This document shows, piece after piece, positions 1-32,229 of a DNA stretch of 49,719 nt. The stretch is from assembly GCA_032718475.1 (NCBI GenBank), contig JAUCBJ010005081.1, positions 1-49,719 on the forward strand, read 5' to 3'. The notes beneath the pieces are model-generated. The model was not told the DNA's origin. It saw only the letters and a list, made by a program, of their open reading frames with translations, and searched no databases. Positions within the stretch are counted from its first letter, which is position 1; each line of letters starts with the position of its first letter. Both the position numbers and the translations under genes were made by a program. Origin of the DNA: Nemertoderma westbladi. Taxonomy: Eukaryota > Animalia > Xenacoelomorpha.

Positions 1-247
1 GGTCAAAGAAAAGAATTAGAAAAAAGAAAAGGACAAAAAAGTCATAAAAAACTGGTTGGATATTATGTATAGCTATAGTAACTGTAAATGCTGAATGTAT
101 TAGCAATAAGATGATAGATGCCTATATAGCAATGTTATTAATAAACTGAATTAAATAAAAAACTGAATTATTCTGCTATCGCTATAGTTTCAGACTTTCT
201 GGACTTATAATTAACTGATCTAATTTGTAACGGATATAATCGTAAAT

Positions 248-2848
248 ATGGACCCAAATCGCCAAATTATCGGCGAATTACGTAACACGATAGATCTACT
301 GGAATATTCGCAACCCGGATCCCCTGACTTTGATACAAATTGGAGCACCCTGCTAAATGAGAACGTGCGAGTCATTAAATTCACCGGGCGAGAGGGACCG
401 GATTCTAAGAATCTACGAGCCCTCCGGTTAGCTGATGCTAGTACGAGACTGAAAAGAACTCGGAACGCAAAGGCAACCGGAGGGGACGATTCGTCGTTTT
501 GGGAAACGTTCCGGCAGAGCGTCTACAGATCCCGATGTTTGATCTACGACAACGAGGGAAACGCGACGCCCACCTCGAAAGCGATTACGTTGGCGAGATG
601 TCAAAGTTTCGTCGACGACAAGAGTACGTACCTCGCCCACTGGGGAAACCTGTCGGAGTGTACGGCGACGCTTCGAGAGGAACGCGTATCGATTATCCAA
701 AACCGAGACGACTACCAAGAAAAGTACGGGGCGAAAGAATACGGTCGATCCTTAGTCGTCGTCCTCGGAACCCTGGACGGTTTGGTACTGGTGTGCCGAA
801 TATTCCCGACACCCAGACAGGAAGTGCAGGCAGCCGGAGCGATCTGGTTGCTGCCTCCGGAAATCCAAAAGATCCTCTTCGACTTCGACGTCATTAAAAT
901 CGGGTCGGATATCAAGGCGGACGTCCGGAACGACTACGCGAACGCCCCTGCAGGAAGAAACCGACGAGACGACCTCAACGCCCTTAGCCATTGCATCGAC
1001 ACTCAAACGCTACTAGCCTGGTTACGATTCGCCGAGTTCATGCGAGGATTCCAAGAGGTGAGACCGACGAAATCCGGGATCGGCTACCTCGCTGTGCTCA
1101 ACGGCGGTATCGACTTCAAACCCCAGAAATTCCGGGACTATAATAAAATATACGGTGGATACCCGGGATTGGAAATAAAGAGCGAGCGAGAGGGTCGATG
1201 GAAGGACGTTGATCGGAAGTGGACGATACACCAAAGGTGGGAGAATCCTGATCGACGGAACTACGTTTACGTCGTTATGGAGTGCTACACCGTCGCTAAG
1301 TTTATCTGTAAAACTCTCGATAACCTTATTACGGCGGTCCCCCTTTCCTTCGTCGACTACGACTGGAACGAGGTTATAAACCACGCGTTTAAAGCGGTCG
1401 AGAACATTACACCGGGAGAATCGAAAACACCCGCCGTTATCGATTCCTGGGACGAGAGCGGACCTTACGACATCCCTACGATTACCGAACTTCTCGGTGC
1501 GGAGGAGCCTCTGATCTCCTCGGAAGGGGAAGAGATATGGCTAAACGAGGGTGTTCTACTCTCCACCCCGAAGCGACAACTCGAGCCGGAGGCCGCGTAT
1601 GGACCGGCCGCCAAACGGGTTGCCTCGGCCGAACCGATGAAGAGAGCAGGCGTTTACACCCCACGCGGCTCCGGTAGCCCCGCGAGGGAGGTAGCCACTA
1701 CAGCTGCATTGAGCGACTTCGGCGACATATGCCAACGGTTATCCCCGTATCCTTTCCCGGGTGGCGAAGATTGGTCGTCGGAGATTCCGAGTACCAGCCA
1801 CCAACGGACCCGCGCAGCGATACTGATCGAGGAGGGCCCCAGCGATGCGCCGACCCCCGACGATCTCCTCGGTATCCCTCCGTCTAAAACCCCGGCACCT
1901 CTTCGCCGACCAGCGGTGGCTACTACACCCGCCGTTCCTCAGGACCCTATGCGACTAACCCGTTGGTACGCCGAGCAAACTGAATGGATCCACCGCCAGA
2001 AACGGTCATCCGAGTTGAGACCAGCGGGACACAAAGAAGGTTATCGGAGCGAGAACCTATTACGCAAAAGCCTAGCATTCCGCGGGCTACCGACCACCGA
2101 GAATATTCCGAAGAGCGACCGACGACTCGAATACTACGTCGGCGTCCCGATTCCGATATTTCCTGGTCGAGAGATACAGTTGGAGGTATGCGGCGACTGC
2201 GGTTCGGAGCAGTGCCCACGCAGCAGAAGGAATCGGGTTACCGATTCTTGCCTCCAGCTCCTCGGGATACTCTATTGCCCATACTGCGCGACATCGGGCC
2301 ACGACGTTTCCGTCTGCCCGATCCTTTATAACCTCTGCACCACGTGCGGTTTCCGTGGACATTCCTCTAGCCCCCGCTGCTATATCAAATGTCCAACCAA
2401 AGACGTTACCGCTATGGGCAATATGGTCATGTTTGAGACATACGCAAACAGCCACTTAAAGACCAAGGTTCGGAGAAACGCTCGGAATATCGCGCAGGAG
2501 ATGGCGTGCGGATATTTCTCCTTCCCGGAACGCCTCCACACGTCGGCCACGCTACCTTTCCATTACGTGGATCTGCTACTGAGCGCCGGATTATTCGGTC
2601 CATTTGAAGTCATTAGACGATTATACTCGTATAAAGAGGAGTTCGGTGACGGAGAATGGTTCCTAGAGGCACGCAAATCTGAGTTGGAGAGACGAACCGA
2701 CATGATCCCGATGCCTTCGAAAGGAAGAGCCGCCAGGAGACAAGCCGAAGCGTTACTCACGATGGATGTTGACGCTCCTCTACCAGCCATAGCGATCGAT
2801 GAGAGTCGACGGGCGAAGAGACGAAAGGCGTATCAGAGAAAGAAATAG
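248..2848 (+). CDS. 866-aa retroelement accessory protein: degenerate DEDDy/WRN-EXD-like 3'-5' exonuclease domain, low-complexity linker, CCHC zinc knuckles, basic C-terminus
   Basis: Long, intronless, GC/CpG-rich ORF in AT-rich flanks. LPPEIQKILFDFDVIKIGSDIKAD..CIDTQTL..GIGYLA..RW..YVYVVMECY follows the WRN/EXD layout (LP..L..LL.D..I.KVG.GI..D..CVDL..GL..LA..W..YAA.D). CPYCATSGHDVSVC is CX2CX4HX4C and CTTCGFRGHSSSPRC is CX2CX4HX5C. The protein ends RRAKRRKAYQRKK. ORF is well supported; the domain call is by eye. Confidence 0.7.
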   Translation: MDPNRQIIGELRNTIDLLEYSQPGSPDFDTNWSTLLNENVRVIKFTGREGPDSKNLRALRLADASTRLKRTRNAKATGGDDSSFWETFRQSVYRSRCLIYDNEGNATPTSKAITLARCQSFVDDKSTYLAHWGNLSECTATLREERVSIIQNRDDYQEKYGAKEYGRSLVVVLGTLDGLVLVCRIFPTPRQEVQAAGAIWLLPPEIQKILFDFDVIKIGSDIKADVRNDYANAPAGRNRRDDLNALSHCIDTQTLLAWLRFAEFMRGFQEVRPTKSGIGYLAVLNGGIDFKPQKFRDYNKIYGGYPGLEIKSEREGRWKDVDRKWTIHQRWENPDRRNYVYVVMECYTVAKFICKTLDNLITAVPLSFVDYDWNEVINHAFKAVENITPGESKTPAVIDSWDESGPYDIPTITELLGAEEPLISSEGEEIWLNEGVLLSTPKRQLEPEAAYGPAAKRVASAEPMKRAGVYTPRGSGSPAREVATTAALSDFGDICQRLSPYPFPGGEDWSSEIPSTSHQRTRAAILIEEGPSDAPTPDDLLGIPPSKTPAPLRRPAVATTPAVPQDPMRLTRWYAEQTEWIHRQKRSSELRPAGHKEGYRSENLLRKSLAFRGLPTTENIPKSDRRLEYYVGVPIPIFPGREIQLEVCGDCGSEQCPRSRRNRVTDSCLQLLGILYCPYCATSGHDVSVCPILYNLCTTCGFRGHSSSPRCYIKCPTKDVTAMGNMVMFETYANSHLKTKVRRNARNIAQEMACGYFSFPERLHTSATLPFHYVDLLLSAGLFGPFEVIRRLYSYKEEFGDGEWFLEARKSELERRTDMIPMPSKGRAARRQAEALLTMDVDAPLPAIAIDESRRAKRRKAYQRKK

Positions 2849-3004
2849 TGGATCGGGATATTCCAGGAACATTTATCGAACATTTATTTTTATACAAACT
2901 CTAGGCCAAATTAATTAAAAACTATGCAATATTAAATTTGGGTTTTTTATATTGGGAATGACCTACGCAAACTCAATCGACCGACAGACTTCACGAAGGT
3001 CATT

Positions 3005-3012
3005 GGGGGGGA
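3005..3012 (+). promoter_or_regulatory. Polypurine tract of an LTR retroelement
   Basis: GGGGGGGA lies one base before TGTT, the start of the putative LTR. Confidence 0.6.
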
Positions 3013-3013
3013 C

Positions 3014-5056
3014 TGTTCGCGGTATTTCAACTTTCCATAACGCGAGTTGAATATTTTTGTATTTATTTAAAATTGATTATTCCGATATTACTACTGGGTG
3101 CGGGACCATGGGTTTTGGGCACATTCAATAAACTGGGGGCGATTTATGGGCGAACTTTGGGGCAACTTACAGGGTACGGGAATAATTTCATAGTTATAAG
3201 GGCCAGGGGGGGATGGAAAATGCAAGCAGTATTCAGGTTAGCCTGAGTACTATTAGGCCCTGGCCAACTTCCTGCTGCCTGTAGGGGTGGATTTGGTAAT
3301 GCGCCAGGCCTAAAGGACAAGGACTGCCCTTAGCGGTCCCTGGCCAACAGCAGCCATTACGAGACTGAAAAGAACTCGGACCGCTGACTGCTTGTGTCAG
3401 GGATTTGCGACGGGCACCGACGGCCCCTTAGTAGCCAAGCCGTTCTGGTTCTCGATGATCGTTCCCTTCGGGGTTCGTGAGGGGTGGAGCGGACACGCGA
3501 ACGGGTGGCCAACTAACGACTGCCCCCTGACCTAAGCCGTACTGGTTCTCGATGACCGATCCCTTCGGGGTTCGTGAGGGGTGGGACGGACATGCGAAAG
3601 GGCTGGCCACAGGACGGGTTTGACGAGAACTGCCCTTAGCGGTCTCTGGTCAACGGCAGCTACTACGAGACTGAAAAGAACTCGGAACGCTGACTGCTTG
3701 TACTGGGATTTGCGACGGGAACCGACGACAGACCCCTTAGCCAAGCCGTACTGGTTCTCGATGATCGTTCCCTTCGGGGTTCGTGAGGGGTGGAACGGAC
3801 ACGCGATGGGGTCGAAAGACAAAGGACTAGACTCGACTAGACTCTACTGGCCTACCGACTGTTCGGAGCAGTTTCTCGGCTGCCGAAGCGACTACGAGCC
3901 GGAAACGGACTCGGAAAGCCTAGGTGGTTGGGTTTCTGTGATGAACTGACGGACCCCTAGCCAAGCCGTTCTGGTTCTCGATGATCGAACCCTTCGGGGT
4001 TCGTGAGGGGTGGAACGGACACGCGAACGGGTCCACCGACACGACAGACTCCTAGCCAAGCCGTACTGGTTCTCGATGACCGAACCCTTCGGGGTTCGAG
4101 AGGGTTGGTACGGATACGCGACAGAGTCTACCGACTGGACCGACCCTTAGCCAAGCCGTGCTGGTTCTCGATGATCGTTCCCTTCGGGGTTCGTGAGGGG
4201 TGGAACGGACACGCGACAGGGTCGACCGACACCGACACTACGGCACTAAGACTGGGACCGAGGGAAAATCTGGGGAACATTAGGTAGGCTAAAATTCTGA
4301 GCAAACAGTGGGTTATTAAATAATATACTGTAGGGATTTATATTATCGTGTATAATTATTGTGAATATTTGGTGTATATTGATTTGGGGAAGCCCAAAAT
4401 TATTCTTAATCAAGTTTCAATGATGTTGAACGGGTTTCAACTATAGGAAGTTACATTAAAGAGTATATCCAACTAATGCAGCTTTTTATCAACCGCAAAC
4501 TTGCATCTCAGAAAATATTCCCTCCCCACAATCAATATCCGGTGACTGGCCGGGGCTCGGTGGTCTGTTAAGTCACGTCTCCAGCATCGGCGTTTTTCCC
4601 CCCTGGTGTAGGGATAACGGCAACACTTATAATAACAATCGCTACAGGTGAACCTAATTTCACCAAAATCGGAGATAACAAATTTTCGGATTTGATTGAC
4701 AAGTTTGTTGCAAATTGTCAGCGGTTTTTTCCGATTTTTGGAGCACAAATTTCTTTCTCAGAATCTCAGCCGAAATTTTTCTACGTAAATTTGGGGTCGC
4801 TGATTCCGAATTTCAAGTCAAGTTTTCCATTTCGACCTACGGTTAGACTTTTATACGCGCCGAAATTTCGAGAATATTGACAAGATATACAATTTTTGTA
4901 AGCAGTTTTCCCAGATAACGTGTTACCTGGTGTTTCGAAGATGACTTAATCAACTTCAATTTGGGGAACATAGTAGGACAAATTATCAGAGAACATATGG
5001 GTTTGGTTAGTTTTATTCCATTTGCCTCGGATTTATTACTTTTAATAACGCAAACA
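3014..5056 (+). mobile_element. Putative ~2.04-kb 3' LTR (TGTT...AACA) of a BEL/Pao- or Gypsy-type element whose body extends left of the window
   Basis: Starts TGTTCGCGGTATT after the PPT and ends AATAACGCAAACA, an 11/13 inverted match. The partner LTR and gag-pol are not in the window. Confidence 0.6.
3326..4224 (+). ncRNA. Array of structured RNA hairpins: six ~69-nt K-turn/cUUCGg hairpins, two longer GAAA-capped hairpins and one variant
   Basis: Type A cores at 3432-3500, 3534-3597, 3738-3806, 3958-4026, 4053-4121 and 4148-4216. Type B at 3326-3415 and 3632-3720. Basal stems show compensatory changes. ACCGAC linkers recur between units. Confidence 0.65.
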
Positions 5057-5497
5057 TTACGTTATGGAATTACACAACAAAGAAAAAGGCTTTTTTGAAT
5101 TTTTTTATAGTGAAAGTTTAATTTTAACTAAACATATTGCGCATAAGTAGATATGTTCAAAATGCCCGCCATGGTAAAGAAATTTAAGCTGATTTAGAAA
5201 GCCTGTACGTACAGCTGTATTGGTGTCGTTACGGAATTACAAACCAGATCGTTATGGAATTTCAAACAAATGTGAGAAGTTTTTGAACTGGGATATTTGT
5301 CATCGTGATTTACATACAACGCCATGACCCGGAATATAATGTCGTCGTAATTCAATGACAAAAGGATTTCACTTCCCGACCACTTAGTGGGAGAGGCGGA
5401 CTTTTTATATTTGCTTTCAATCTTTAGCGACAACCGTTAAAAAAAAGTGTCTCCTGTGATATTACACAAGTCCCACCGCAGTTATTTTTCAACTTTG

Positions 5498-5776
5498 TAG
5501 TACTACTACTACTACTAGGATCGGCATGCTGCATTGCAGCTGCATTTTTAAGAATGCTGTGCCGGCTTGTCTACAAAATTGCGCCGCCACAACTCCCTAT
5601 CACCCATGGCATTTGCTAGATCATCTGCATCTTCAAGGCCAGTGTCCTTTAAGATGCGTCTCAAGAAAGTCATGGGCTGTCCAACATGCTTATTCACTCC
5701 ATGAGGCTGCCAAAGTACAAGATTATGCACTGGCTGGTCCTCACGGCGAAAGCAATGTCCTGCAAAGCGGAGGCGA
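5498..5776 (-). mobile_element. 3' fragment of an RTE-clade LINE, same family as 45543-47251
   Basis: (TAG)n tail (tac repeats on +) and near-identity to 45543-45812, encoding RLRFAGHCFRREDQPVHNLVLWQP. Confidence 0.9.
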
Positions 5777-5903
5777 AACCCGTTTTTAGTTCCAGTTTTT
5801 ACCCTAAAAACAGTATGTGAGGAAGGGCACAGTGTATCAAGGATTTTGATTACCAAAAACCGTCGTCACTTTTGTTTGCTGCTCCACCGATCTCTGCAAC
5901 AAA

Positions 5904-6065
5904 GATAAACCGAACGCCGCTGATAAACCGAACGCCGCTGATAAACCGAACGCCGCTGATAAACCGAACGCCGCTGATAAACCGAACGCCGCTGATAAAC
6001 CGAACGCCGCTGATAAACCGAACGCCGCTGATAAACCGAACGCCGCTGATAAACCGAACGCCGCC
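5904..6065. repeat. 18-bp minisatellite, 9 copies (GATAAACCGAACGCCGCT)
   Basis: Nearly perfect tandem copies. Confidence 0.95.
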
Positions 6066-6102
6066 GATACCAACCGAGTCTCGATGATTGCGTTCATTCT
6101 AC

Positions 6103-6151
6103 CATGACCTACTATAACAGTTATAGTTGTTAACTGTTAAAGTAGGTCATG
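6103..6151. repeat. Inverted repeat, ~21-bp stem
   Basis: CATGACCTACT.TAACAGTTA pairs with TAACTGTTA.AGTAGGTCATG. Confidence 0.8.
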
Positions 6152-7578: not shown

Positions 7579-7855
7579 AACATTTACGTTGTAGCAACTT
7601 ACAATATCGTTAAAACATATTAATTTGATTCTCAGTAAGTTGTTATATTAATACGGTCAGCGCTGTCAGATAAGCTGATTATCCTGGTGTTGTTGTTAAG
7701 TTGCTAAGCAACATACCAATCTCACTATGTACTAACAGCTGTAGTCCTAATCTCAGCTATATGGGGAGGTGAGATAGGTCCTACTATTTAGAGTATTGTC
7801 CAGTAATTGTGACTCCGCCACATGACCCCCCCCCCCCCCCCAGACTCGAAATAGT

Positions 7856-10555
7856 TTACAAATAGTCCGGCGGGTGGATTGTTCGTCCTGACCGAGTTTG
7901 TGTGGGCGCTAAGGGTGGGCTCTGTGATGGGACAATTTTATTCGGAGCCGCTGGTTGTATGGGAACCGGAATAGGGTTAGGTGGTCGACCACGGCGCCGT
8001 GGATGGTCAAGGGTGACAGGTTTAGTTATGTCAAGATGTGCTGGTTTCAGTCGGTCGACCGAAACTGTTTCGGTACGACCCCCCATCTCAATCTTGAACG
8101 TTTTTGTTCCAGTTTCGAGAACCCTGTAGGGGCCCTCATAGGGCCGTTCTAGCGGTGTCCGGTGGGCATCGCGTCGGATGAAGACGTAGGTGGCGTTCTG
8201 TAGGCCCGGGGGAACTGACGACGAAGTCAAACCATGGCGTGATGTGGGAACCGGAACAAAACGCCCAACCACTTGACGAAGTTGGGGAAGTATTGTTGAC
8301 GGGGTGTGTTGGGTTTCTATAGACGGTGGTAGGAACTCTCCCGGGACAGTGAGCGGAGCACCATAAACGAGCTCGGCGGAGGAGGTTCCTAAGTCGTCCT
8401 TGGGTGCTGTCCGGATTCCGAGAAGCACCCATGGTAATGCGTCTACCCAATCAGGGTTGTCGAGAGAGGCTCGAAGGGCAGACTTGAGATGACGGTGAAA
8501 CCGTTCTACCAGTCCATTCGCCTGTGGGTGATACGCGGTGGTGCGGTGTAGTTGGATGCCCAGCAGCTTGTTGATGGCCGACCAGAAGTGGGAGGTGAAT
8601 TGTGAACCCCAGTCCGATGAGAGATCGGCTGGAACACCGAATCGGGCGATCCATGTCGAAATGAGTGCACGCGCACAGCTCTCTGTGGAAGTTTCACTGA
8701 GGGGTACAGCCTCTGGCCACCGAGTGAAGCGGTCCACAATCGTCAGCAGGTGGGTGAAACCGTGTGATGGTGGTAGAGGACCAACGAGATCAACATGTAT
8801 GTGGTCGAATCGGCGGTGAGGGGTTGCGAAGGTGCCGAGGGGTGCACGTATGTTGCGTTGCACCTTGGAGGTCCGGCACGGGATGCAGGTCTTAACCCAG
8901 TCTCCTACTTCTTTGCGGAGGCCGTGCCAGACAAACATATCAGCAATGATTGTCTTGGTTGCGCGAGCCCCAGGGTGTGACAGACCGTGGATGGTGTTGA
9001 ATACACGTCGTCGCCAGGCCTTGGGAACGACTGGGCGAGGGTGGCCGAGGGAGGTGTCGCATTGTAGTGTGGCACCTGATGGGCCAAGTGAGACGTCCTC
9101 CAGCTGAAGGCCGGAAACAGCCGTGCGGTACATGGCCATCTCTGTGTCGACAAGTTGAGCGTCCGCCATGGCCCTGTAGTCGAGCCCAGGAAGCAAGTTG
9201 CATATGGTGTTAGTATTAGTCCTGGAGAGTGCATCTGCCACACAGTTGTCTTTACCAGCGATGCGTTGGATGTCTGTGGTAAACTCCGAGATGTAGGAGA
9301 GGTGACGCTGCTGTCTATTGGACCATGGGTCACTGATCTTTGCGAGCACAAAAGTTAGTGGTTTGTAGTCAGTGTACACGGTGAAGGGCCGACCTTCCAG
9401 GAAGTACCGGAAGTGGCGGATTGCTAGGTACAGCGCAAGCAGCTCCCGGTCGAATGCACTATATTTGACTTCCGGGGGACGTAGTTGGCGGCTAAAGAAC
9501 GCAAGGGGGCGCCATGAGTTACCGATGAGTTGTTCTAGAACAGCACCCACTGCTGTACCTGATGCGTCCACTGTGAGTGCTGTGTGGGCGTTGGTGTTGG
9601 GATGAGTTAACATCGTCGCATTGGCGAGGGCATCCTTTGCGATCTGGAATGCGTGATCCATGTTGGGAGTCCAGTTTAGTGTTTCCCCGCCAGGGCCGCA
9701 TATAGGGGTCGCATGATGTCAGCAGCGGAGGGGACGAACCGATGGTAAAAGTTTACCATCCCCACAAACTCCTGTAGGCCTTTCACCGTGGTTGGCTGTG
9801 TAAACTCCCGGATGGCGGCGACCTTGTCGGGGAGCGGAACAGCACCGTGAGTTGAAATACGGTGGCCAAGGAAGTCGATTGTTTCACGACCAAACTGACA
9901 TTTTGCCAGGTTGATAACAAGGCCTTGGTGTTGAAGGCGCATGAAGAGCTGATGGAGGTGTTCACGGTGCTCCGACTTGGACCGACTTGCAACGAGAATG
10001 TCATCGAGGGAAACAAATATGAAGTCGAGTCCCTGGCACACCGTGTCCATCAGTCTCTGGAAGGCCTGGGCTGCGTTCTTCAGCCCGAACGGCATCCGAA
10101 GGAACTCGAACAGTCCGAACGGGGTGATGACCGCAGTCTTGGCGATGTCGGCTTCTCGCTGTGACAGGGATCTGGTGGTAGCCGCGCACCAGATCGATCT
10201 TCGAGAAGATCTTCGCACCTGCCAGTCGGGAGGAGAAGTCCTGGATGTGGGGGATGGGGTATCGGTCCGGAGTTGTGGCGTCGTTAAGTCGTCGGTAGTC
10301 GCCACACGGCCGCCAACCGACCGAGGGTTTGGGGGCCATGTGGAGGGGCGACGCCCAGGGACTGTTGGACCAGCGGATGATCCCCATCTCTTCCATTTTG
10401 CGGAACTCCTCCCTCGCGATTTCCAGTTTATCTGGAGGTAGGCGACGGACCCTGCGTGGGGATGTAGTGCTCCACGCCGTGTTTCGCGGTCGGGTCAGAA
10501 AACCGTGGTACTGTAATGTCAGGATATTCGGCAAGTATCTGGGCGAACTCGTCAT
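7856..10555 (-). pseudogene. Gypsy pol (RT, RNase H, integrase), frameshifted
   Basis: Motifs [38 protein letters not shown] (for YLDD), TVDASG, VADALSR, HHCC zinc finger, HVDLVGP and NGLVERFH, spread over three ORFs. Confidence 0.92.
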
Positions 10556-10572
10556 TGGAGGCAGCTATAGAA

Positions 10573-10920
10573 CTAAGGTGGAGGGCGTGGCCCCGGGTCT
10601 GTCCACATGGGATCGAGAGGATCGCCGAGTCCGTTTAGGTCCCAGAGCCTTGCGGCACGGTCGCGCCGTGAGAGGCTGTATGTTTTATTGAGTTTCGCCT
10701 TTAGGGAGTTATATTTATCTCCGGCTGGAGGATCTCGTATTAGGTTGAGGAGCCGGCTGGCGGTGTCTTGGTCCAAAGCACCCACGACGTAGTAGTACTT
10801 CGTGTCGTCCGCTATGATACTACGGATATTAAATTGTGCCTCGGCCTGGGCGAACCATACCTCAGGCTGGGAAGTCCAGAAGGAGGGGAGTTTCAGGGAG
10901 ACTGCGTTCGCTTCAACCAT
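10573..10920 (-). pseudogene. Truncated Gypsy gag N-terminus
   Basis: AVSLKLPSFWTSQPEVWFAQAEAQF is a typical Mag-like gag start. Similarity breaks after LNGLGD (~10620) and joins the post-protease linker, so the gag C-terminus and protease are missing. Confidence 0.85.
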
Positions 10921-13854
10921 GGTTGTTGATTTGGTTGAGAAAGTTCGTTAGTGATTCGGTCGCATCGGTTCTTTTGGGGTTTTCTCAAAAATTCGTTTTG
11001 AGACGCCGGGTCACCAATGTAGCAACTTACAATATCGTTAAAACATATTAATTTGATTCTCAGTAAGTTGTTATATTAATATGGTCAGCGCTGTCAGATA
11101 AGCTGATTATCCTGGTGTTGTTGTTAAGTTGCTAAGCAACATACCAATCTCACTATGTACTAACAGCTGTAGTCCTAATCTCAGCTATATGGGGAGGTGA
11201 GATAGGTCCTACTATTTAGAGTATTGTCCAGTAATTGTGACTCCGCCACAACGTCTAGAATCTGAAATATTAACTGTAGGTTTACAGTTTTGATATATTT
11301 AGAATCTACAGGGTTTCTAACATATATAGGCCAAATATCGCATACAAAGGGTAAGGTCACCTCATTTGGGAAGCATTTATGTTTAACAAAGTCAATATAG
11401 AAAGCATAAACGTCCATATCTGTAACGCTACAAATGTGGCCATAGATTTTGATAATATTAATCTCATACAAGTATAATGGTACGTGTGGTAAGGCAATTT
11501 TAATTTATGCCGCATTAACCCCAAGAGTTAATGTGAAAAATAAACACCTATGATGTATGGCGGTGGTAAGCGTTTTTGTCAACAATCTGTAACGCGTCAC
11601 CGTTACAGTGCAGTGCGTTACAGATAAGGGATGTCTCATCTGTAACGCATTATATAACCAGTTATCGATGCGTTACAGACTGTAGGTTTCAGTCCTATCT
11701 ATATGACAGTCCTATCTGTAACGGAGTGTCATCCTGAAATACAATAAGGCATCACTGACAATACTTGAATGCCTACGCGTTTGATACGTTCTTCGTCTTC
11801 CTACTGACATCCTAACTGCTCATGGTAATGTGGTAGTGTAAGATGGGTAAGTGTAAAACGCGGATCCGGATCGGTACCCGGATTTTGGGGTTAAAACGCG
11901 GATCCGGATTTTCATGAAATCCGGAAATGAGTCCAAAATGCGAATTCAAGATAATTTTCATTGTCAAGTGCGTTACTTGATCCCGTAAGGGGAGTAAAAC
12001 ACGGATTCATGTTTATCTCTATCCGGGAAGAGGTGATTGTGGATTCTGGGGAGTAATAGCGCAGATTCACTTCACATATGAAATTGTATGAATCCAGAGC
12101 TTCTGGGTCCGTGGTAAATAATTTAGGAATTAATTGCAAATATACACTCTCCATCTTATAAATTTTATGTATTAATAAAATGTGCTTTCTGTAAAATTTC
12201 GCTTTATTTCGTTTAGAATTGTAGAAGATACATTTCCTACAAACAGTGTTTTTTTTAACATACAATATATTGTACAGACGGTCCTTTGCCCAATGTTTTG
12301 TTTTTCGTTTTTCATGATTAGGGTCTGCAGACGTACAGTATATAGATAGGTTTCAATAAATTTGTATGTCTAATTTCATCTGACATGAAGCAATAAATAA
12401 ACAAAAGTAAAGAATCCAGTGACTGTTATCAGTGAGTCTTGTGTAACTTCAATGTAAGAGATTGAGATGTATAATTTACTCTAATGATTAAATACTCTAA
12501 TGCGTATAAAAGGCCTAGATTTTACTATCAATTTCTAAATCATTGCCTTAACATCACTTACTGACTTACATGACGGACTTGTGCACTACTTATATTATTG
12601 TGATAAGTTTAGTCAGATCCGTTTATTGGATGTGGTAATAGACGTCTCTGAATCAGTTGCAGAGAAACGCCAGGAAGCGGTTAAATAAGTACAGAGAGCA
12701 AATGTACCGCGGTTGTTATACATAGTATTTTAAACAAGCATATAAAAAGCGGCGCGATAGAGAAAATTTAACACGGGATAAAAAAAAGTCGTGTAAAACA
12801 AGATTATCGGTTACACAGAAAAATGTTAGTGAAAAACTTTTTCTATATTTATTGGAAACCATGTGTATTAAGTACATATAATTTAGTGGATGCGATGGTT
12901 ACGGGCAGATATCGCTGTTTGTTACAGATGTTTGTCCAATAAATTACCTTATTGTCGAAGCAATAAGTTATAAATACTGCAAAATCCATATAACATAATT
13001 ACCGTTACAGATGGCCGTTACAGACGTTTGTCCCATAAATGTCATCACTGTAATGCGTTACAGTGGTAGACAAAAACGTTACAGATATGACATTAGTTTT
13101 TGCCATATGTCTCCCTTTGAGCACCGCCTCATGCTCTCCCTCTACCATCACAAGATTCGCCATGAAATTATCTTTCGAATGGTGTATGGTATGGCACTAA
13201 TTTCCGACAAAAATTTTTTGGTCAATTTGTACACCTTTTTGGCCACTTTTAAGCTTATTGACCGACCCAGCTGCATTTTTAAGAATGCTGTGCCGGCTTA
13301 TCGACAAAATTCAATGTTGATGACACGACAACAATATTAAATTACCTTACAAAAACAACCCAATACATTTGCTATTTATTAAATACTTCAATGCAAAGTA
13401 AAATATAATATCTACCGGTCTTGTATTTTTTAAAACACAATTTCTTCATGCATTTTTAAGGGGTATTTATTGTCTGCGTTGTAATGATCTCCACTGCTCT
13501 GCATTTTAATGTTAATACTAGAAGTTGCCCTGATCTTCCTTTGACTTATAATTAAATCGAGGAATTAAAAAAAATCAAATTATGAATTATGTTCCATTCT
13601 ATTCAATTAAATTCAATAAACGCCAATAATATAACCCATTACTACTAACACACAATAACAATATTCTAAAATGGGAATGTAAAATTATCAGCATAATTAT
13701 ATAAATTGCACAAAATGAACAACAAAAGATTTTGATTAAAAGGCACCAGGTGGATAATAACTATTTAGTTCAGTAACATACCAGTTTGTAAGCGATATTG
13801 TAATTGCTATAGACCATAATCCAAACCTAATGAATACCTAACTTTATATGCGAT

Positions 13855-14274: not shown

Positions 14275-17200
14275 AGGTCCCCAAATAACCTGGAACTCTG
14301 TATCGTCCAGGTAGGTCTCCAACTAACCTGGAACTCTGTATCGTCCAGGTAGGTCTCCAACTAACCTGGAACTCTGTATCGTCCAGGTAGGTCTCCGACT
14401 AACCTGGAACTCTGTATCGTCCAGGTAGGTCTCCAACTAACCTGGAACTCTGTATCGTCCAGGTAGGTCTCCAACTAACCTGGAACTCTGTATCGTCCAG
14501 GTAGGTTTCCAACTAACCTGGAACTCTGTATCGCCCAGGTAGGTCTCCAACTAACCTGGAACTCTGTATCGTCCAGGTAGGTCTCCAACTAACCTGGAAC
14601 TCTGTATCGTCCAGGTAGGTCTCCGACTAACCTGGAACTCTGTATCGTCCAGGTAGGTCCCCAACTAACCTAGAACTCTGTATCATCCAGGTAGGTCCCC
14701 AACTAACCTAGAACTCTGTATCGTCCAGGTAGGTCTCCAACTAACCTGGAACCCTGTATCGTCCAGGTAGGTCTCCAACGAACCTGGAACTCTGTATCGT
14801 CCAGGTAGGTCTCCAACTAACCTGGAACTCTGTATCGTCCAGGTAGGTCTCCGACTAACCTGGAACCCTGTATCGTCCAGGTAGGTCCCCAACTAACCTG
14901 GAACTCTGTATCGTCCAGGTAGGTCTCCAACTAACCTGGAACTCTGTATCGTCCAGGTAGGTCCCCAACTAACCTGGAACTCTGTATCGTCCAGGTAGGT
15001 CTCCAACTAACCTAGAACTCTGTATCGTCCAGGTAGGTCTCCAACTAACCTGGAACCCTGTATCGTCCAGGTAGGTCTCCAACGAACCTGGAACTCTGTA
15101 TCGTCCAGGTAGGTCTCCAACTAACCTGGAACTCTGTATCGTCCAGGTAGGTCTCCAACTAACCTGGAACTCTGTATCGTCCAGGTAGGTCCCCAACTAA
15201 CCTAGAACTCTGTATCATCCAGGTAGGTCCCCAACTAACCTAGAACTCTGTATCGTCCAGGTAGGTCTCCAACTAACCTAGAACTCTGAATCGTCCAGGT
15301 CTCAAACTAACCTGGAACTCTGTATCGTCCAGGTAGGTCTCCAACTAACCTGGAACTCGGTATCGTCCAGGTAGGTCCTCAACTAACCTGGAACTCTGTA
15401 TCGTCCAGGTAGGTTTCCAACTAACCTGGAACTCTGTATCGTCCAGGTAGGTCTCCAACTAACCTAGAACTCTGAATCGTCCAGGTAGGTCTCCAACTAA
15501 CCTGGAACTCTGAATCGTCCAGGTAGGTCTCCAACTAACCTGGAACTCTGTATCGTCCAGGTAGGTTTCCAACTAACCTGGAACTCTGTATCGTCCAGGT
15601 AGGTCTCCAACTAACCTAGAACTCTGAATCGTCCAGGTAGGTCTCCAACTAACCTGGAACTCTGAATCGTCCAGGTAGGTCTCCAACTAACCTGGAACTC
15701 GGTATCGTCCAGGTAGGTCCTCAACTAACCTAGAACTCTGAATCGTCCAGGTCTCAAACTAACCTGGAACTCTGTATCGTCCAGGTAGGTCTCCGACTAA
15801 CCTGGAACTCTATATCGTCCAGGTAGGTCTCCAACTAACCTGGAACTCTGAATCGTCCAGGTAGGTCTCCAACTAACCTGGAACTCGGTATCGTCCAGGT
15901 AGGTCCTCAACTAACCTATAACTCTGAATCGTCCAGGTCTCAAACTAACCTGGAACTCTGTATCGTCCAGGTAGGTCTCAAACTAACCTGGAACTCTGTA
16001 TCGTCCAGGTAGGTCTCCGACTAACCTGGAACTCTGTATCGTCCAGGTAGGTCTCCAACTAACCTGGAACTCGGTATCGTCCAGGTAGGTCCTCAACTAA
16101 CCTAGAACTCTGAATCGTCCAGGTCTCAAACTAACCTGGAACTCTGTATCGTCCAGGTAGGTCCCCAACTAACCTGGAACTCTGTATCGTCCAGGTAGGT
16201 CTCAAACTAACCTGGAACTCTGTATCGTCCAGGTAGGTCTCCAACTAACCTAGAACTCTGAATCGTCCAGGTCTCAAACTAACCTGGAACTCTGTATCGT
16301 CCAGGTAGGTCTCCAACTAACCTAGAACTCTGAATCGTCCAGGTCTCAAACTAACCTGGAACTCTGTATCGTCCAGGTAGGTCTCAAACTAACCTGGAAC
16401 TCTGTATCGTCCAGGTAGGTCTCCAACTAACCTAGAACTCTGAATCGTCCAGGTCTCAAACTAACCTGGAACTCTGTATCGTCCAGGTAGGTCTCCAACT
16501 AACCTAGAACTCTGAATCGTCCAGGTCTCAAACTAACCTGGAACTCTGTATCGTCCAGGTAGGTCTCCAACTAACCTAGAACTCTGAATCGTCCAGGTAG
16601 GTCTCCAACTAACCTGGAACTCTGTATCGTCCAGGTAGGTCTCCAACTAACCTGGAACTCTGTATCGTCCAGGTAGGTCTCCGACTAACCTGGAACTCTG
16701 TATCGTCCAGGTAGGTCTCCAACTAACCTAGAACTCTGTATCGTCCAGGTAGGTCTCCGACTAACCTGGAACTCTGTATCGTCCAGGTAGGTCTCCAACT
16801 AACCTAGAACTCTGAATCGTCCAGGTAGGTCTCCAACTAACCTGGAACTCTGTATCGTCCAGGTAGGTCTCCAACTAACCTGGAACTCTATATCGTCCAG
16901 GTAGGTCTCCAACTAACCTGGAACTCTGTATCGCCCAGGTAGGTCTCCAACTAACCTGGAACTCTGTATCGCCCAGGTAGGTCTCCAACTAACCTGGAAC
17001 TCTGTATCGTCCAGGTAGGTCTCCAACTAACCTGGAACTCTGTATCGTCCAGGTAGGTCTCCAACTAACCTGGAACTCTGTATCGTCCAGGTAGGTCTCC
17101 AACTAACCTGGAACTCTGTATCGTCCAGGTAGGTCTCCAACTAACCTGGAACTCTGTATCGTACAGGTAGGTCTCCAACTAACCTGGAACTCTGTATCGC

Positions 17201-17750
17201 CCAGGTAGGTCTCCAACTAACCTGCTGGAACGCTGTATCGTCCAGGTAGGTCTCCAACTAACCTAGAACTCTGAATCGTCCAGGTAGGTCTCCAACTAAC
17301 CTGGAACTCTGTATCGTCCAGGTAGGTCTCCAACTAACCTGGAACTCTGTATCGTCCAGGTAGGTCTCAAACTAACCTGGAACTCTGTATCGTCCAGGTA
17401 GGTCTCCAACTAACCTAGAACTCTGAATCGTCCAGGTCTCAAACTAACCTGGAACTCTGTATCGTCCAGGTAGGTCTCCAACTAACCTGGAACTCTGTAT
17501 CGTCCAGGTAGGTCTCCAACTAACCTGGAACTCTGTATCGTCCAGGTAGGTTTCCAACTAACCTGGAACTCTGTATCGTCCAGGTAGGTCTCCAACTAAC
17601 CTGGAACTCTGTATCGTCCAGGTAGGTCTCAAACTAACCTGGAACTCTGTATCGTCCAGGTAGGTCTCAAACTAACCTGGAACTCTGTATCGTCCAGGTA
17701 GGTCTCCAACTAACCTGGAACTCTGTATCGTCCAGGTAGGTCTCCAACTT
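14275..17750. repeat. 38-bp tandem array (~90 copies) of exon end plus splice donor
   Basis: Minus unit GGAGACCTACCTGGACGATACAGAGTTCCAG|GTTAGTT: last 31 nt of exon 17715-17879 plus the first intron bases. Confidence 0.97.
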
Positions 17751-17879
17751 GTGAGGGTCAACTCCCTCCGGAAGGTCATGGATTAGGATCTGTTGGTATG
17801 TTAGACGGATTTCTGTTAAAGTCCGCAACACATTGGTTGCCATGAGCACGGGAAATTCATCTGGTTCCAATTTGTATTC
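17715..17879 (-). CDS. SVIL: Supervillin-like exon (headpiece start)
   Basis: ttttataaag|EYKLEPDEF...HDLPEGVDPHKLETYLDDTEFQ|gttagt; phase 0/0; LPEGVDP.KLE.YL headpiece motif. Confidence 0.92.
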
Positions 17880-17979
17880 CTTTATAAAATGTTTATAATA
17901 TTAATACCATTACTAACGGATACAAGCAAGCAAACAGTCGGCCGAAACCGGAGGCGACCCGAAGGCCCCTCTTTTGATA

Positions 17980-19457
17980 GCTGCTACCCGGGGGTTGGGG
18001 TGGGCGCTACTCATATCTGCTACCCGAAGATAGGGGTGGGCGCTACTCTTATCTGCTACCCGAAGATAGGGGTGGGCGCTACTCTTATCTGCTACCCGAA
18101 GATAGGGGTGGGCGCTACTCTTATCTGTTACCCGAGGGTAGGGGTGGGCGCTACTCTTATCTGCTACCCGAAGATAGGGGTGGGCGCTACTCTTATCTGC
18201 TACCCGAAGATAGGGGTGGGCGCTACTCTTATCTGCTACCCGAAGATAGGGGTGGGCGCTACTCTTATCTGCTACCCGAAGATAGGGGTGGGCGCTACTC
18301 TTATCTGCTACCCGAAGATAGGGGTGGGCGCTACTCTTATCTGCTACCCGGGGGTTGGGGTGGGCGCTACTCATATCTGCTACCCGAAGATAGGGGTGGG
18401 CGCTACTCTTATCTGCTACCCGAAGATAGGGGTGGGCGCTACTCTTATCTGCTACCCGAAGATAGGGGTGGGCGCTACTCTTATCTGCTACCCGAAGGTA
18501 GGGGTGGGCGCTACTCTTATCTGCTACCCGAAGATAGGGGTGGGCGCTACTCTTATCTGCTACCCGAAGATAGGGGTGGGCGCTACTCTTATCTGTTACC
18601 CGAGGGTAGGGGTGGGCGCTACTCTTATCTGCTACCCGAAGATAGGGGTGGGCGCTACTCTTATCTGCTACCCGAAGATAGGGGTGGGCGCTACTCTTAT
18701 CTGCTATCCGAAGATAGGGGTGGGCGCTACTCTTATCTGCTACCCGAAGATAGGGGTGGGCGCTACTCTTATCTGCTACCCGAAGATAGGGGTGGGCGCT
18801 ACTCTTATCTGCTACCCGAAGATAGGGGTGGGCGCTACTCATATCTGCTACCCGAAGATAGGGGTGGGCGCTACTCTTATCTGCTACCCGAAGATAGGGG
18901 TGGGCGCTACTCTTATCTGCTACCCGAAGATAGGGATGGGCGCTACTCTTATATGCTACCCGAAGATAGGGGTGGGCGCTACTCTTATCTGCTACCCGAA
19001 GATAGGGGTGGGCGCTACTCTTATCTGCTACCCGAAGATAGGGGTGGGCGCTACTCTTATCTGCTACCCGAAGATAGGGGTGGGCGCTACTCTTATCTGC
19101 TACCCGAAGATAGGGGTGGGCGCTACTCTTATCTGCTACCCGAAGATAGGGGTGGGCGCTACTCATATCTGCTACCCGAAGATAGGGGTGGGCGCTACTC
19201 TTATCTGCTACCCGAAGATAGGGGTGGGCGCTACTCTTATCTGCTACCCGAAGATAGGGATGGGCGCTACTCTTATCTGCTACCCGAAGATAGGGGTGGG
19301 CGCTACTCTTATCTACTACCTGAAGATAGGGGTGGGCGCTACTCTTATCTGCTACCCGAAGATAGGGGTGGGCGCTACTCTTATCTGCTACCCGAAGATA
19401 GGGGTGGGCGCTACTCTTATCTGCTACCCGAAGATAGGGGTGGGCGCTACTCTTATC
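17980..19457. repeat. 36-bp intronic minisatellite (~41 copies)
   Basis: Unit ATCTGCTACCCGAAGATAGGGGTGGGCGCTACTCTT. Contains no exon sequence. Confidence 0.97.
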
Positions 19458-19521
19458 CCATGTTTTGCTCCCAAGTAATTTAACTGGTACTCATTTATGT
19501 GTGTAGTCAGTCACAACTCAC

Positions 19522-19643
19522 CAATCGGTTGGCCGTTGCTATTTCCGAGTCACGGCGCCAATAAGGAAATAAATTGGTAAACATAACGGGTTCAACACCG
19601 GCGATAACAACATATACTGGTGGGGGGTCTATCGAGGCCACAG
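19522..19643 (-). CDS. SVIL: Supervillin-like exon
   Basis: ttttcag|(S)VASIDPPPVYVVIAGVEPVMFTNLFPYWRRDSEIATANRL|gtgagt; phase 1/0; matches AG.EP..FTN.FP.W. Confidence 0.93.
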
Positions 19644-20679
19644 CTGAAAATAAAATAGTTAAAAATAAACCGGGGTTCTATCGCGAGTCACAACAGACAA
19701 TAGTATAGTGAACTTAAGGGCACCCCCATAGGGACACACGTCTTCTATAAATGTAGGACACATAAGTGTGCATGTAGAAAAGGTTTTGCCTTGGAATTTG
19801 GCAATCATGTTTTATGGCTTTTCAGACAACTATTTGATAGGGTAGATTAAAAATATTTATTACGGCCTCAGGGGCTCAGGAAATTGTTCAGTTTCATAGA
19901 GTAACCAATTTTACTGGTTTTCGAAATTTTGTCAACTCTGTATGATGTGATTTTAGAACAAAACATGCTCAATTTATAATTCTAGACTCATTCAAAATTT
20001 CATAGAAATTTACCAAACCAATCAAGAGATATATACCTAAACAAACAAAGGTCGGGAAATTTTAATTAGCGGGAAATTGCACTTAAAGTTGAAACATTAA
20101 AAACAGCGCTATGAATAACATACTGTAATATATGAATGTAACCTCAAATTGAAAGTAATATCCACTGTATTGTTGCAGAAACAACACAAGCAATTAGGCA
20201 ATTTACTTTAAATATTATAATTAGTATGTGTAGGTAAGCTACAATTAACATATTAATGTAATACTGTAACTATGAAATATACTATAAATTTAGGGAGCGG
20301 TGTTAGAGTCAATCTCATTAAGATGATTTAATATTATGATCTGTTAGTGATTTTAAATATTAAAAATTGTTCTCAATAAGTAACTTTAAAAATAGATAAA
20401 TAATACTCAAATATACTTATGTATTAGTTTTGATACCTATTTTTGAAATTATTGTGTCCTTGCATTATTTTGCCTATCGGAAAGAATAATACAGTATAGT
20501 AAGAATACATCACATGCGTCAGGTGATTTGGGTGTATTCAAAGCTATAAAACTATAACAGATATAAATAAACCCATTTCGGTTTTGATTTCAGCATAAAC
20601 TTTTACATCAGAATATATGTATATAAAAAAAAATTTGGAATAATTTAAGATTTTTGCCCTATGTACCTTAAACAGTAAC

Positions 20680-21277
20680 ATGTAACTCACGGGAACTTAT
20701 ACAGACCCACGTAACTCACAGGAACTTATACAGACCCACGTAACTCACAGGAACTTATACAGACCCATGTAACTCACCGGAACTTATACAGACCCACGTA
20801 AGTCACAGGAACTTATACAGACCCACGTAACTCACAGGAACTTATACAGACCCACGTAACTCACAGGAACATATACAGACCCACGTAACTCACAGGAACT
20901 TATACAGACCCATGTAACGCACCGGAACTTATACAGACCCATGTAACTCACAGGAACTTATACAGACCCACGTAACTCACAGGAACATATACAGACCCAC
21001 GTAACTCACAGGAACTTATACAAACCCATGTAACTCACAGGAACTTATACAGACCCACGTAACTCACAGGAACTTATACAGACCCATGTAACGCACCGGA
21101 ACTTATACAGACCCATGTAACTCACAGGAACTTATACAGACCCACGTAACTCACAGGAACATATACAGACCCACGTAACTCACAGGAACTTATACAAACC
21201 CACGTAACTCACAGGAACTTATACAGACCCACGTAACTCACAGGAACATATACAGACCCACGTAACTCACAGGAACT
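20680..21277. repeat. 29-bp tandem array (~20 copies) spanning a splice donor
   Basis: Minus unit AGTTCCT|GTGAGTTACGTGGGTCTGTATA begins at the end of exon 21271-22039. Confidence 0.96.
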
Positions 21278-22039: not shown

Positions 22040-22073
22040 CTGTAACATAAAACATAACGGCATACTGAAAGGC

Positions 22074-22511
22074 CTTGGATTAGAGATGTTATATAAAGGT
22101 TTTGTTAAGAAATGGAAAATATAAGGAAGCGCGTCACCGGGGGTTGAACCAACGCTATACGTAGGTCAGCAATACTCGAGCTGAATATTTATTTATTTGT
22201 TCTTCCCTCCTGTTTCACTCTAACGCCGTTAGGCCCGCTGTTAGAGATAGAATATATGCAACTTAAGACTGCCCGTTCAATAGAAGTGGATTAGGTGGGA
22301 GTTTGAGTGTCAGGGACAAGTGGCTGAGCTGGTTAGCGCTACTGATGAGGCCTGATAGGCTGAAACGTACGTATAGCGCTGGTTCAACCCCCGGTGACGC
22401 GCTTTCTCATTTTTTCCATTTCTGAACAAAACCATAATATTACATCTTTAATTACAGTTGTATTAACAGCTCAACTCCAATTCATTTAATTAATATCACT
22501 TGGATTAGAGA
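22074..22511. mobile_element. Penelope-like element remnant: pseudo-LTR-type inverted repeat with hammerhead
   Basis: ~83-bp imperfect inverted repeat (22081-22163 vs 22368-22450) overlapping the ribozyme. A 13-bp direct repeat CTTGGATTAGAGA at 22074-22086 and 22499-22511 is a candidate TSD. Confidence 0.6.
22335..22380 (+). ncRNA. Minimal type I hammerhead ribozyme
   Basis: Stem I AGCGCUA/UAGCGCU; core CUGAUGA; stem II GGCCU-GAU-AGGCU; GAAA; minimal stem III C-GUAC-G with a palindromic loop; GUA cleavage triplet (cut after 22373). Confidence 0.88.
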
Positions 22512-23008: not shown

Positions 23009-23022
23009 TCGATTCAACCTAC

Positions 23023-32224: not shown

Positions 32225-32229
32225 CTAAA

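What the first reader, a model, noticed from the sequence alone, without database searches (positions are those of the whole stretch)
3425..4224. Six tandem kink-turn hairpins with covarying stems inside a putative LTR
Seen: each unit reads basal stem, YUAGCCAAG, CCGUWC, UGGUUCUC, GAU, GA, Y, CGWWCCC, UUCG, GGGUUCG, W, GA, GGG, GWACGG, ACACGCGA, basal stem. Basal stems change but keep pairing: GACCCC/GGGGUC, GGACCC/GGGUCC, AGACUC/GAGUCU, CGACCC/GGGUCG. The middle stem is CCGUUC/GAACGG in copy 4 and CCGUAC/GUACGG in copy 5; other copies have a mismatch there. Established: a 3-nt bulge ending in U followed by tandem G.A/A.G and U.U pairs is the K-turn consensus bound by L7Ae-family proteins (Snu13/15.5K, L30e), and cUUCGg is an extra-stable tetraloop. 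Inference: this is a selected multivalent RNA scaffold in the element's terminal RNA (export, localisation, packaging or protection), not a neutral LTR repeat. I know of no described equivalent.
Basis: partly seen in the sequence, partly recalled or inferred. Interest (0 to 1): 0.9.

Follow-up and report, generated by a model that had tools for sequence, protein, structure and literature searches.

The report
Kink-turn hairpin array in retrotransposon LTR
The terminal repeat of an animal retrotransposon holds six hairpins whose sequence matches the kink-turn motif, mixed with a second hairpin type, and these likely form a multi-site protein docking platform on the element's RNA, although the kink and any protein binding are only predicted.

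Summary
The six units are real (6 matches, 0 by chance). They lie in a 1,612-bp LTR (3014-4625) of a multi-copy element whose last gene encodes a nuclease-like, zinc-knuckle protein. They are not simply tandem. One contig carrying a template-switch adapter plus G suggests a cap site near 3224, and ATTAAA lies at 4315, so the array probably fills an unusually long R region. Compensatory changes exist but are few: three columns in basal and middle stems, marginal under a column shuffle. None lies in the kink-turn core, which is invariant. All six units match the standard K-turn pattern. However, nearest-neighbour folding prefers a competing register by 3-6 kcal/mol, so a kink would probably need protein. 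There is no Rfam match and no such element in the papers searched. Best reading: a selected multivalent RNA scaffold that steers the fate of the element's RNA (0.5). Binding of a 15.5K/Snu13-type protein is untested.

The parts
248..2848 (+). Last ORF of the element (env position, 'ORF3'), 866 aa from ATG 248: DEDDy-like 3'-5' exonuclease fold (first catalytic motif apparently lost), low-complexity linker, Cys/His zinc knuckles, basic C-terminal tail
   Evidence: Atlas lead PF01612; homologues P0002-P0004; 15 of 19 listed variants synonymous
188..193 (+). Candidate 3' splice site (TTTCAG) upstream of the ORF; inferred
   Evidence: sequence only
420..484 (+). Type-B hairpin B0 inside the coding sequence: 10-bp perfect lower stem, 5x4 internal loop, GAAA cap
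   Evidence: (z -3.99)
3005..3012 (+). Polypurine tract
   Evidence: sequence
3014..4625 (+). 3' LTR, 1,612 bp, TGTT...AACA
   Evidence: 9 of 12 inverted-repeat matches; contig breaks at 3012 and 4625 and depth steps
3195..3200 (+). TATA-like box about 29 nt before the candidate cap site
3224..3224 (+). Candidate transcription start (cap site)
   Evidence: one contig of run X2 has template-switch adapter plus one extra G before 3224; base 3223 is C; adapter and cap-tag meaning from PMC9245221
3228..3251 (+). Cap-proximal hairpin H1 (10 bp)
   Evidence: z -4.9
3253..3313 (+). Hairpin H2
   Evidence: z -1.8
3325..3416 (+). Type-B hairpin B1
   Evidence: z -5.3
3423..3506 (+). Type-A unit A1 (K-turn pattern, bulge starts 3454)
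3522..3603 (+). Type-A unit A2 (most degenerate; bulge 3551)
3633..3719 (+). Type-B hairpin B2
   Evidence: z -2.0
3731..3813 (+). Type-A unit A3 (bulge 3760)
3861..3946 (+). Type-B hairpin B3 on an unrelated lower stem
   Evidence: z -3.9
3951..4034 (+). Type-A unit A4 (bulge 3980)
   Evidence: (z -4.1)
4046..4129 (+). Type-A unit A5 (bulge 4075)
   Evidence: (z -3.3)
4141..4224 (+). Type-A unit A6 (bulge 4170)
3416..4236 (+). ACCGAC linkers between hairpins (3416, 3721, 3854, 4035, 4130, 4139, 4225, 4231)
   Evidence: 8 in 3300-4260 (8.3 per kb) against 5 in the ORF (1.9 per kb)
4315..4320 (+). Candidate poly(A) signal ATTAAA followed by U/GU-rich sequence; inferred end of R
   Evidence: depth of run X2 falls after 4320

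Best explanation
The six hairpins match the kink-turn sequence pattern and alternate with three GAAA-capped hairpins inside the LTR of a multi-copy retrotransposon, where they likely form a selected, multi-site protein docking platform that would steer the element's RNA towards protection, export or packaging rather than translation. Shown: the units, the LTR, the second hairpin type, the K-turn pattern, and a few compensated pairs. Inferred step 1: transcription starts near 3224 and polyadenylates after 4315, so the array fills a long (about 1.1 kb) R region and sits at both ends of the genomic RNA. Inferred step 2: type-A units rest in an extended, bulged form and are pulled into a kink by a host L7Ae-family protein (15.5K/Snu13 or L30e). 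That would also bury the AUG in each unit and block scanning from the cap. Inferred step 3: type-B units are bound by the element's own ORF3 product (zinc knuckles, basic tail, probably inactive nuclease fold), which also has a site in its own coding sequence, a logic like Rev/Rex or CERV.
For: K-turn positions met in 6 of 6 units, and 3b:3n is never Watson-Crick (definition and rules in PMC8191799). Both changes at 3b give C, which those rules say folds well. A loose K-turn-hairpin pattern hits only these 6 places on both strands of the 49.7-kb window. A4 against A5: 3 compensated Watson-Crick pairs among 14 differences, P about 3e-4 under random placement. One basal column shows three pair types. 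The + strand folds better than the - strand in 12 of 12 hairpins, with more G.U pairs in 11 of 12. The type-B head sits on three unrelated lower stems that each pair (z -4.0, -5.3, -2.0, -3.9), one inside a coding sequence under apparent purifying selection (15 of 19 listed variants synonymous). The common variant at 433 turns a U.G in B0 into C-G. A and B units share a basal YUA-GC/GC-GA module and the ACCGAC linker. Run X2 looks like cDNA: adapter plus G at 3224, LTR flanks at 1.18 times and the array at 3.8 times the internal depth, against 2.9 and 2.5 for the LTR flanks in runs X1 and X4. Precedent for protein-induced K-turn folding in a leader: PMC6298567 (abstract). Precedent for tandem motifs in a 5' UTR repressing translation additively: PMC3711428 (passages).
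Against: The K-turn core and nearly all pairs beside it never vary, so they say nothing. The energy model gives the K-turn register a probability of at most 0.008, and the competing register 0.96-0.998 in 5 of 6 units (0.35 in A5); the K-turn register costs 3.2-6.0 kcal/mol (the model has no K-turn term). Column-shuffle controls on A4-A6 are marginal (24 to 65 of 500). The A4-A6 and A5-A6 comparisons give P 0.054 and 0.014, with 3 and 4 pairs gained or lost. 4 of 6 A units fold no better than shuffles. Folding 3224-4300 as a whole cross-pairs units instead of keeping all as hairpins. The one both-sided change in type B is weak, because all contigs laid at 3901 in X1, X2 and X4 read another letter there. 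A copy in run X5 keeps only one A unit (joint 3444-4161), so six are not needed. The cap site rests on one contig in a run labelled 'DNA?', and contig depth is a poor measure of expression. The exonuclease call is a lead only: no Pfam hit for this protein and both folds had pLDDT about 35.
Confidence: 0.5

Rival explanations
1. The hairpins are selected RNA structures but not kink-turns. Each A unit folds as an extended helix with a 5-6 nt purine-rich bulge, and the array serves as a binding, dimerisation or packaging signal for the element's own proteins, or as a shunt-type leader with one short upstream ORF per unit.
For: The competing register is favoured by the energy model in all six units. 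The conserved U at -2b pairs Watson-Crick with A1n in that register but only as U.G in the K-turn register. The G-to-U change in A5 loses a pair in the K-turn register and gains one in the other. Each unit holds an AUG opening a 23-62 codon ORF.
Against: The exact purine-purine-U bulge, tandem G.A/A.G, -1 C:G and a never-Watson-Crick 3b:3n pair are all kept. Rare variant units keep GAUGA while the bases just before it change (tables 5c and 7), though those contigs were picked by aligning from that point. The energy model lacks K-turn terms.
Confidence: 0.22
2. The array works in trans. LTRs, including solo LTRs, would make a stand-alone capped RNA of about 1.1 kb (3224 to about 4335) that consists only of the hairpins and soaks up host RNA-binding proteins, like viral decoy RNAs.
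For: Candidate TATA, cap site and poly(A) signal all lie within one LTR around the array. Array depth in run X2 is 3.8 times internal, above the 2 expected for R in a full-length RNA. LTR to internal depth in X1 and X4 is above 2, as solo LTRs would give.
Against: Repeated units inflate contig depth. No poly(A)-tailed contig end was among the loose ends shown (372 were not shown). A B hairpin inside the ORF points to a cis role.
Confidence: 0.15
3. Neutral LTR tandem repeats. A chance hairpin was amplified by slippage and unequal recombination, and the few compensated pairs arose by template switching within inverted repeats during replication.
For: Unit number and order vary among copies (joints). 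Units are 75-92% identical, so conservation may reflect recent duplication. The shuffle controls are marginal and several pairs are broken.
Against: Two hairpin types with shared basal modules, unrelated but paired lower stems, G.U-rich strand asymmetry, kept internal loops, and a structured B copy inside a coding sequence are not expected from slippage or palindrome correction.
Confidence: 0.13

Closest known systems
Standard K-turns of box C/D snoRNA, U4 snRNA and L30e/L7Ae mRNA leaders (PMC8191799 part 1 of 5; PMC4382518, PMC5061560, PMC4316175 passages; PMC6298567 abstract)
   Same: 3-nt bulge, tandem G.A/A.G, -1b:-1n C:G; 3b:3n U.U in four units, which predicts the N3 conformation
   Different: Six copies in a mobile element's LTR. 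4b:4n is C:G, whereas the box C/D consensus has G:C (recalled). There is a strong competing register. No Rfam match.
Retroviral RNA export elements: MPMV CTE and RSV direct repeats (PMC5035971 passages); HTLV RexRE in R and HERV-K RcRE (recalled)
   Same: Long hairpins with internal loops near the RNA ends, repeated, serving as protein docking sites
   Different: No sequence match was shown. Two hairpin types, K-turn pattern, variable copy number, invertebrate-type LTR element.
Cer1 CERV of C. elegans (PMC10309623 passages)
   Same: An LTR retrotransposon with a non-env ORF at the env position; CERV is needed for export of genomic RNA
   Different: No homology was tested. The passages found name no RNA response element ('stem-loop' and 'cis-acting' had 0 occurrences). 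ORF3 here is nuclease-like with zinc knuckles.
ENE triple-helix element of the Evade/Copia93 retrotransposon (PMC12501189 passages)
   Same: A structured RNA motif near the 3' end of an LTR retrotransposon RNA that acts on RNA fate
   Different: ENE has U-rich internal loops that bind poly(A) and lies between the ORF and the LTR. The units here lack such loops and lie inside the LTR.
Bdelloid Juno/Vesta LTR retrotransposons with DEDDy ORF3 (PMC5408684 parts 2-3 of 5)
   Same: An extra 3' ORF with a DEDDy-type exonuclease fold instead of env
   Different: Their LTRs are 159-551 bp with intact catalytic residues. Here the LTR is 1,612 bp, the first acidic motif seen in homologues P0002-P0004 is not kept, and zinc knuckles are fused.

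Membership tests
Standard K-turn | 3-nt bulge followed by tandem G.A and A.G pairs in a duplex | tested here: met
   6 of 6 units; definition
Standard K-turn | Canonical helix closing the bulge (-1b:-1n C:G) and paired NC helix | tested here: met
   C:G, U.G, C:G in 6 of 6; NC stem closed by UUCG with 0-2 U.U pairs
Standard K-turn | K-turn register actually adopted rather than an alternative pairing | tested here: inconclusive
   The energy model prefers another register but has no K-turn term; core invariant
Standard K-turn | Kinked 3D fold and binding by an L7Ae-family protein | not testable with these tools
   needs FRET, probing, gel shift
Box C/D snoRNA | Box C RUGAUGA and box D CUGA with G:C at 4b:4n (consensus recalled) | tested here: not met
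   4b:4n is C:G in 6 of 6; only a chance-level sR36 hit, 13.4 bits against a cut-off of 55
SECIS element | AUGA/GA core with a 10-13 bp upper helix and apical AAR (recalled) | tested here: not met
   Upper helix of 7-8 pairs capped by UUCG, no apical AA; the ORF ends in TAG with no in-frame TGA; no Rfam hit
Any Rfam family (ribozymes, CTE, RRE, ENE and others) | Covariance-model match at gathering score | tested here: not met
   3 sub-threshold hits in 1-6000, best E 0.42 and outside the array
LTR retrotransposon 3' LTR | Polypurine tract then TG...CA ends with short inverted repeat | tested here: met
LTR retrotransposon 3' LTR | Over-representation of the LTR against the internal part, and sharp ends among copies | tested here: met
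   2.5-2.9 times in X1 and X4; depth falls from 66,537 to 1,372 after 4680 in X1
LTR retrotransposon 3' LTR | Matching 5' LTR, gag-pol, target-site duplication, superfamily | not testable with these tools
   The window starts inside the element; no genome is held
DEDDy 3'-5' exonuclease | Fold and acidic catalytic motifs | tested here: inconclusive
   Atlas lead 0.92, family on 50% of members; P0002 weak PF01612, E 0.2; D-x-E in homologues but not here; folds unusable
Rev/Rex/CERV-type export system | Element protein made from a spliced RNA binds a structured element and is needed for export | not testable with these tools
   only a candidate acceptor and a basic tail seen

The most novel reading that the evidence does not exclude
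A retrotransposon that has built, by duplicating two hairpin modules, a tunable RNP scaffold of about 1.1 kb in its LTR. Kink-turns capture the host's snoRNP/U4 core protein 15.5K, and GAAA hairpins capture the element's own pseudo-nuclease protein, which also controls its own mRNA. The same RNA is also released from solo LTRs as a free decoy. It would be a natural multivalent K-turn array in a mobile element, of a kind not found in the papers searched.
Probability: 0.2. Interest if true: 0.88.

Novelty: new variant of a known kind. Interest (0 to 1): 0.62.

Why it matters
How invertebrate LTR retrotransposons get unspliced RNA past nuclear retention and decay, and sort it between translation and packaging, is known for very few elements. 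For Cer1 a protein is known, but the passages read named no RNA element. Here a candidate RNA element and a candidate cognate protein sit in one element, in short modules that are easy to test. If the K-turns bind 15.5K/Snu13, a mobile element is using a core snoRNP/spliceosome protein, and it naturally does what synthetic biologists built with tandem L7Ae sites. Full-text searches for LTR retrotransposon with kink-turn (2 papers) and k-turn with retrotransposon and long terminal repeat (2 papers) listed no such element by title or abstract start. They cover only open-licence PubMed Central and bioRxiv, so absence from print is not shown.

Tried and rejected
No whole genome is held, so other copies could not be aligned. 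Rfam at E up to 10 on 1-6000: no real hit. DNA pattern in metagenome contigs: 0. A looser pattern in viral contigs: 14 single matches, none in an array, judged unrelated. Protein-based locus searches: 0, one weak 26-residue locus not followed up, and 0 of 145 candidates in metagenomes. Word-index protein searches: none for the whole protein or the shorter range, and only P0002 itself with the alignment. The full HMMER scan gave 3 relatives, all unnamed singletons, whose DNA context could not be read. Pfam: nothing for ORF3. Solved-structure sequence searches: nothing meaningful for ORF3 or the profile; P0002's knuckles match retroviral nucleocapsid (E 1e-4). Both structure predictions had mean pLDDT 34-36, so no fold search was run. 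No RNA holder is on record among the listed runs; this is no evidence either way. Sliding-window folding z-scores do not single out the array: minus-strand ORF windows reach -4.0. Earlier findings of this scan: nothing. A paper search for a recalled exonuclease in a BEL-type Cer element gave 0, so that lead is dropped. A recalled ENE survey paper was not held. SECIS, box C/D snoRNA and hammerhead readings were considered and rejected on sequence (consensus rules recalled) and on Rfam. A finer tally of variants within a single unit across genomic copies was not obtained, so covariation in the K-turn core among copies is untested. No supplements were read.

Full report
OBSERVATION. The six units are present (family D1, 75-92% identical to A4). 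A 28-nt core pattern matches 6 times with 0 expected. Spacings are 97, 209, 220, 95 and 95, so the array is not purely tandem. Anchored on the bulge (3454, 3551, 3760, 3980, 4075, 4170), every unit has bulge GAU, G.A at 1b:1n, A.G at 2b:2n, C:G at -1b:-1n and 4b:4n, and a UUCG loop. 3b:3n is U.U in four units, C.U in A2 and C.A in A5. This meets the sequence definition of a standard K-turn (PMC8191799, part 1 of 5 read). A loose K-turn-hairpin pattern of my own hits only these six places on both strands of the window; the pattern was written after seeing the units.

A second hairpin type (B) occurs four times: 3325-3416, 3633-3719, 3861-3946, and inside the upstream ORF at 420-484 (0 expected by chance). 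Its head is a GC pair step, a 5x4 internal loop (N-A-N-U-A opposite G-A-N-N, resembling a loop-E/bulged-G motif; resemblance recalled), a 4-bp stem and a GAAA cap. It sits on three unrelated lower stems that each pair (z -4.0, -5.3, -2.0, -3.9). B1, B2 and five of the six A units share a basal YUA-GC/GC-GA module (A2 is degenerate), and hairpins are spaced by an ACCGAC linker (8 in 961 bp). Two more hairpins start the array (3228-3251, z -4.9; 3253-3313, z -1.8). The order is H1 H2 B1 A1 A2 B2 A3 B3 A4 A5 A6. Rfam has no match.

CONTEXT. A polypurine tract (3005-3012) precedes TGTT at 3014, and AACA ends at 4625, with 9 of 12 inverted-repeat matches. I laid contigs of 4 of the 9 listed runs on 1-5400. 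In X1 and X4, depth is about 15,000-34,000 over the ORF, 46,000-112,000 over the LTR, and under 1,400 beyond 4680. Contigs of X2 break at 3012 and 4625. Depth is not a copy number, but the steps mark a multi-copy element with an LTR. Joints show units rearranged among copies, and one contig of X5 joins 3444 to 4161, leaving a single A unit. The 5' LTR and gag-pol are outside the window and no genome is held, so the superfamily is open. The ORF at 248-2848 has no Pfam hit. An Atlas lead points to a 3'-5' exonuclease (0.92, family on half the members). HMMER found three relatives. P0002 shares both the N-terminal domain and the Cys-rich part, has a weak PF01612 hit, and its knuckles match retroviral nucleocapsid. 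The relatives have a D-x-E motif where this protein does not, so it may be a pseudo-nuclease (inference from a four-sequence alignment). 15 of the 19 ORF variants among the 40 rows shown (206 not shown) are synonymous. DEDDy ORF3s are known from bdelloid LTR elements (PMC5408684, parts 2-3 of 5).

WHERE IN THE RNA. One contig of X2 carries the end of the SMARTer template-switch adapter plus one G before position 3224. The genomic base there is C, and PMC9245221 (passages) gives that adapter and treats such an untemplated G as a cap tag. A TATA-like box lies 29 nt upstream and ATTAAA at 4315 is followed by U/GU-rich sequence. In X2, the LTR bins flanking the array have 1.18 times and the array 3.8 times the internal depth, as expected of RNA with R duplicated; X1 and X4 give 2.9 and 2.5 for the flanks. 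These are hints only: one contig, a run labelled 'DNA?', and the tool warns that contigs cannot show starts or levels. They point to R of about 3224-4335, which would put the array at both ends of the genomic RNA.

IS THE STRUCTURE SELECTED? For: A4 against A5 has 3 compensated Watson-Crick pairs among 14 differences (null P about 3e-4; the structure was derived from these sequences), and one basal column has three pair types. The + strand folds better in 12 of 12 hairpins. The common variant at 433 improves a B0 pair. Against: column shuffles reach the observed values in 24-65 of 500 (three sequences only; A1-A3 left out because they need gaps). The other two comparisons give P 0.054 and 0.014 and lose or gain 3-4 pairs. 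Four A units fold no better than shuffles. The single both-sided change in B (141 of 500 shuffles) is undercut by the variant at 3901 read in all contigs of X1, X2 and X4 laid there. The whole-leader fold cross-pairs units. On balance I put selection on RNA structure at about 0.85.

IS IT A K-TURN? The core is invariant, so covariation is silent. The nearest-neighbour model pairs the C and U before the bulge with the G and A of the other strand. The probability is 0.96-0.998 in five units and 0.35 in A5, against at most 0.008 for the K-turn register, a cost of 3.2-6.0 kcal/mol. The model has no K-turn term. Box C/D and U4 K-turns fold only with protein (PMC4382518 passages), and an archaeal leader K-turn is unstructured until L7Ae binds (PMC6298567 abstract). 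A protein-driven switch is therefore possible but not shown. 4b:4n is C:G, unlike the recalled box C/D consensus. A paper whose title says stem II is needed for snoRNP assembly was seen only as a reference-list entry, so a full snoRNP is not expected (inference). I put real L7Ae-family binding at about 0.5.

MECHANISM. Most likely (0.5) the array is a cis-acting multivalent docking platform in R. Host 15.5K/Snu13 or L30e would kink the A units, burying the AUG that each contains (uORFs of 23-62 codons) and impeding scanning, as tandem L7Ae sites do in reporters (PMC3711428 passages). The element's ORF3 product would bind the B units, including the one in its own coding sequence. Together these would favour protection, export or packaging of the genomic RNA. 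Parallels are CTE-type export elements (PMC5035971 passages), CERV (PMC10309623 passages) and the Evade ENE (PMC12501189 passages); it works like these at most and is a member of none. Rivals: structured but not kinked (0.22), a free LTR RNA acting in trans (0.15), neutral repeats (0.13).

NOVELTY. Searches (listings and abstract starts, plus the papers named above) showed no K-turn array in a retroelement LTR; the library is limited to open-licence papers. No related locus was found in the collections at hand. I file it as a new variant of a known kind, structured RNA control elements at retroelement ends, with interest 0.62.

Noticed in passing
window 7590-11250 (- strand): A separate Ty3/Gypsy-type element with its own 233-bp LTR pair (7590-7822 and 11018-11250, near-identical) and RT, RNase H and integrase domains over overlapping frames; unrelated to the array.
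   Followed up: partly
window 3861-3875 and 3932-3946: The base of hairpin B3 has GAUGA opposite GGA, which could form a further K-turn in reverse orientation or a plain tandem G.A loop (fold).
   Followed up: no
window 5877-6110: A CCxxDxCN motif (Ly6/three-finger-like end; label recalled) followed by nine DKPNAA repeats and a short hydrophobic tail; stops upstream in this frame. Possibly an exon or a decayed gene.
   Followed up: partly
window 5627-5657: Weak IRE_II-like hairpin with a CAGUG loop, 24.2 bits against a cut-off of 30, E 0.42; probably chance.
   Followed up: no
window 14273-49719: Large satellite arrays with periods 38, 36, 29, 56, 20, 34 and 46.
   Followed up: no
window 1303-2462: A contig of run X2 skips 1,158 bases of the ORF (depth 95.9; ends AT..AG): an internally deleted copy or an unusual splice.
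   Followed up: no
window 3551 and 3705: Loose ends in runs X5 and X2 and rare joints in X1 and X4 show diverged A and B units (changed middle stem and changed bases before GAUGA), hinting at older subfamilies useful for covariation.
   Followed up: partly
window 442-450: The head of B0 begins with letters resembling the sarcin-ricin loop, and the B cap resembles phage boxB hairpins bound by arginine-rich peptides; both resemblances are recalled, not tested.
   Followed up: no
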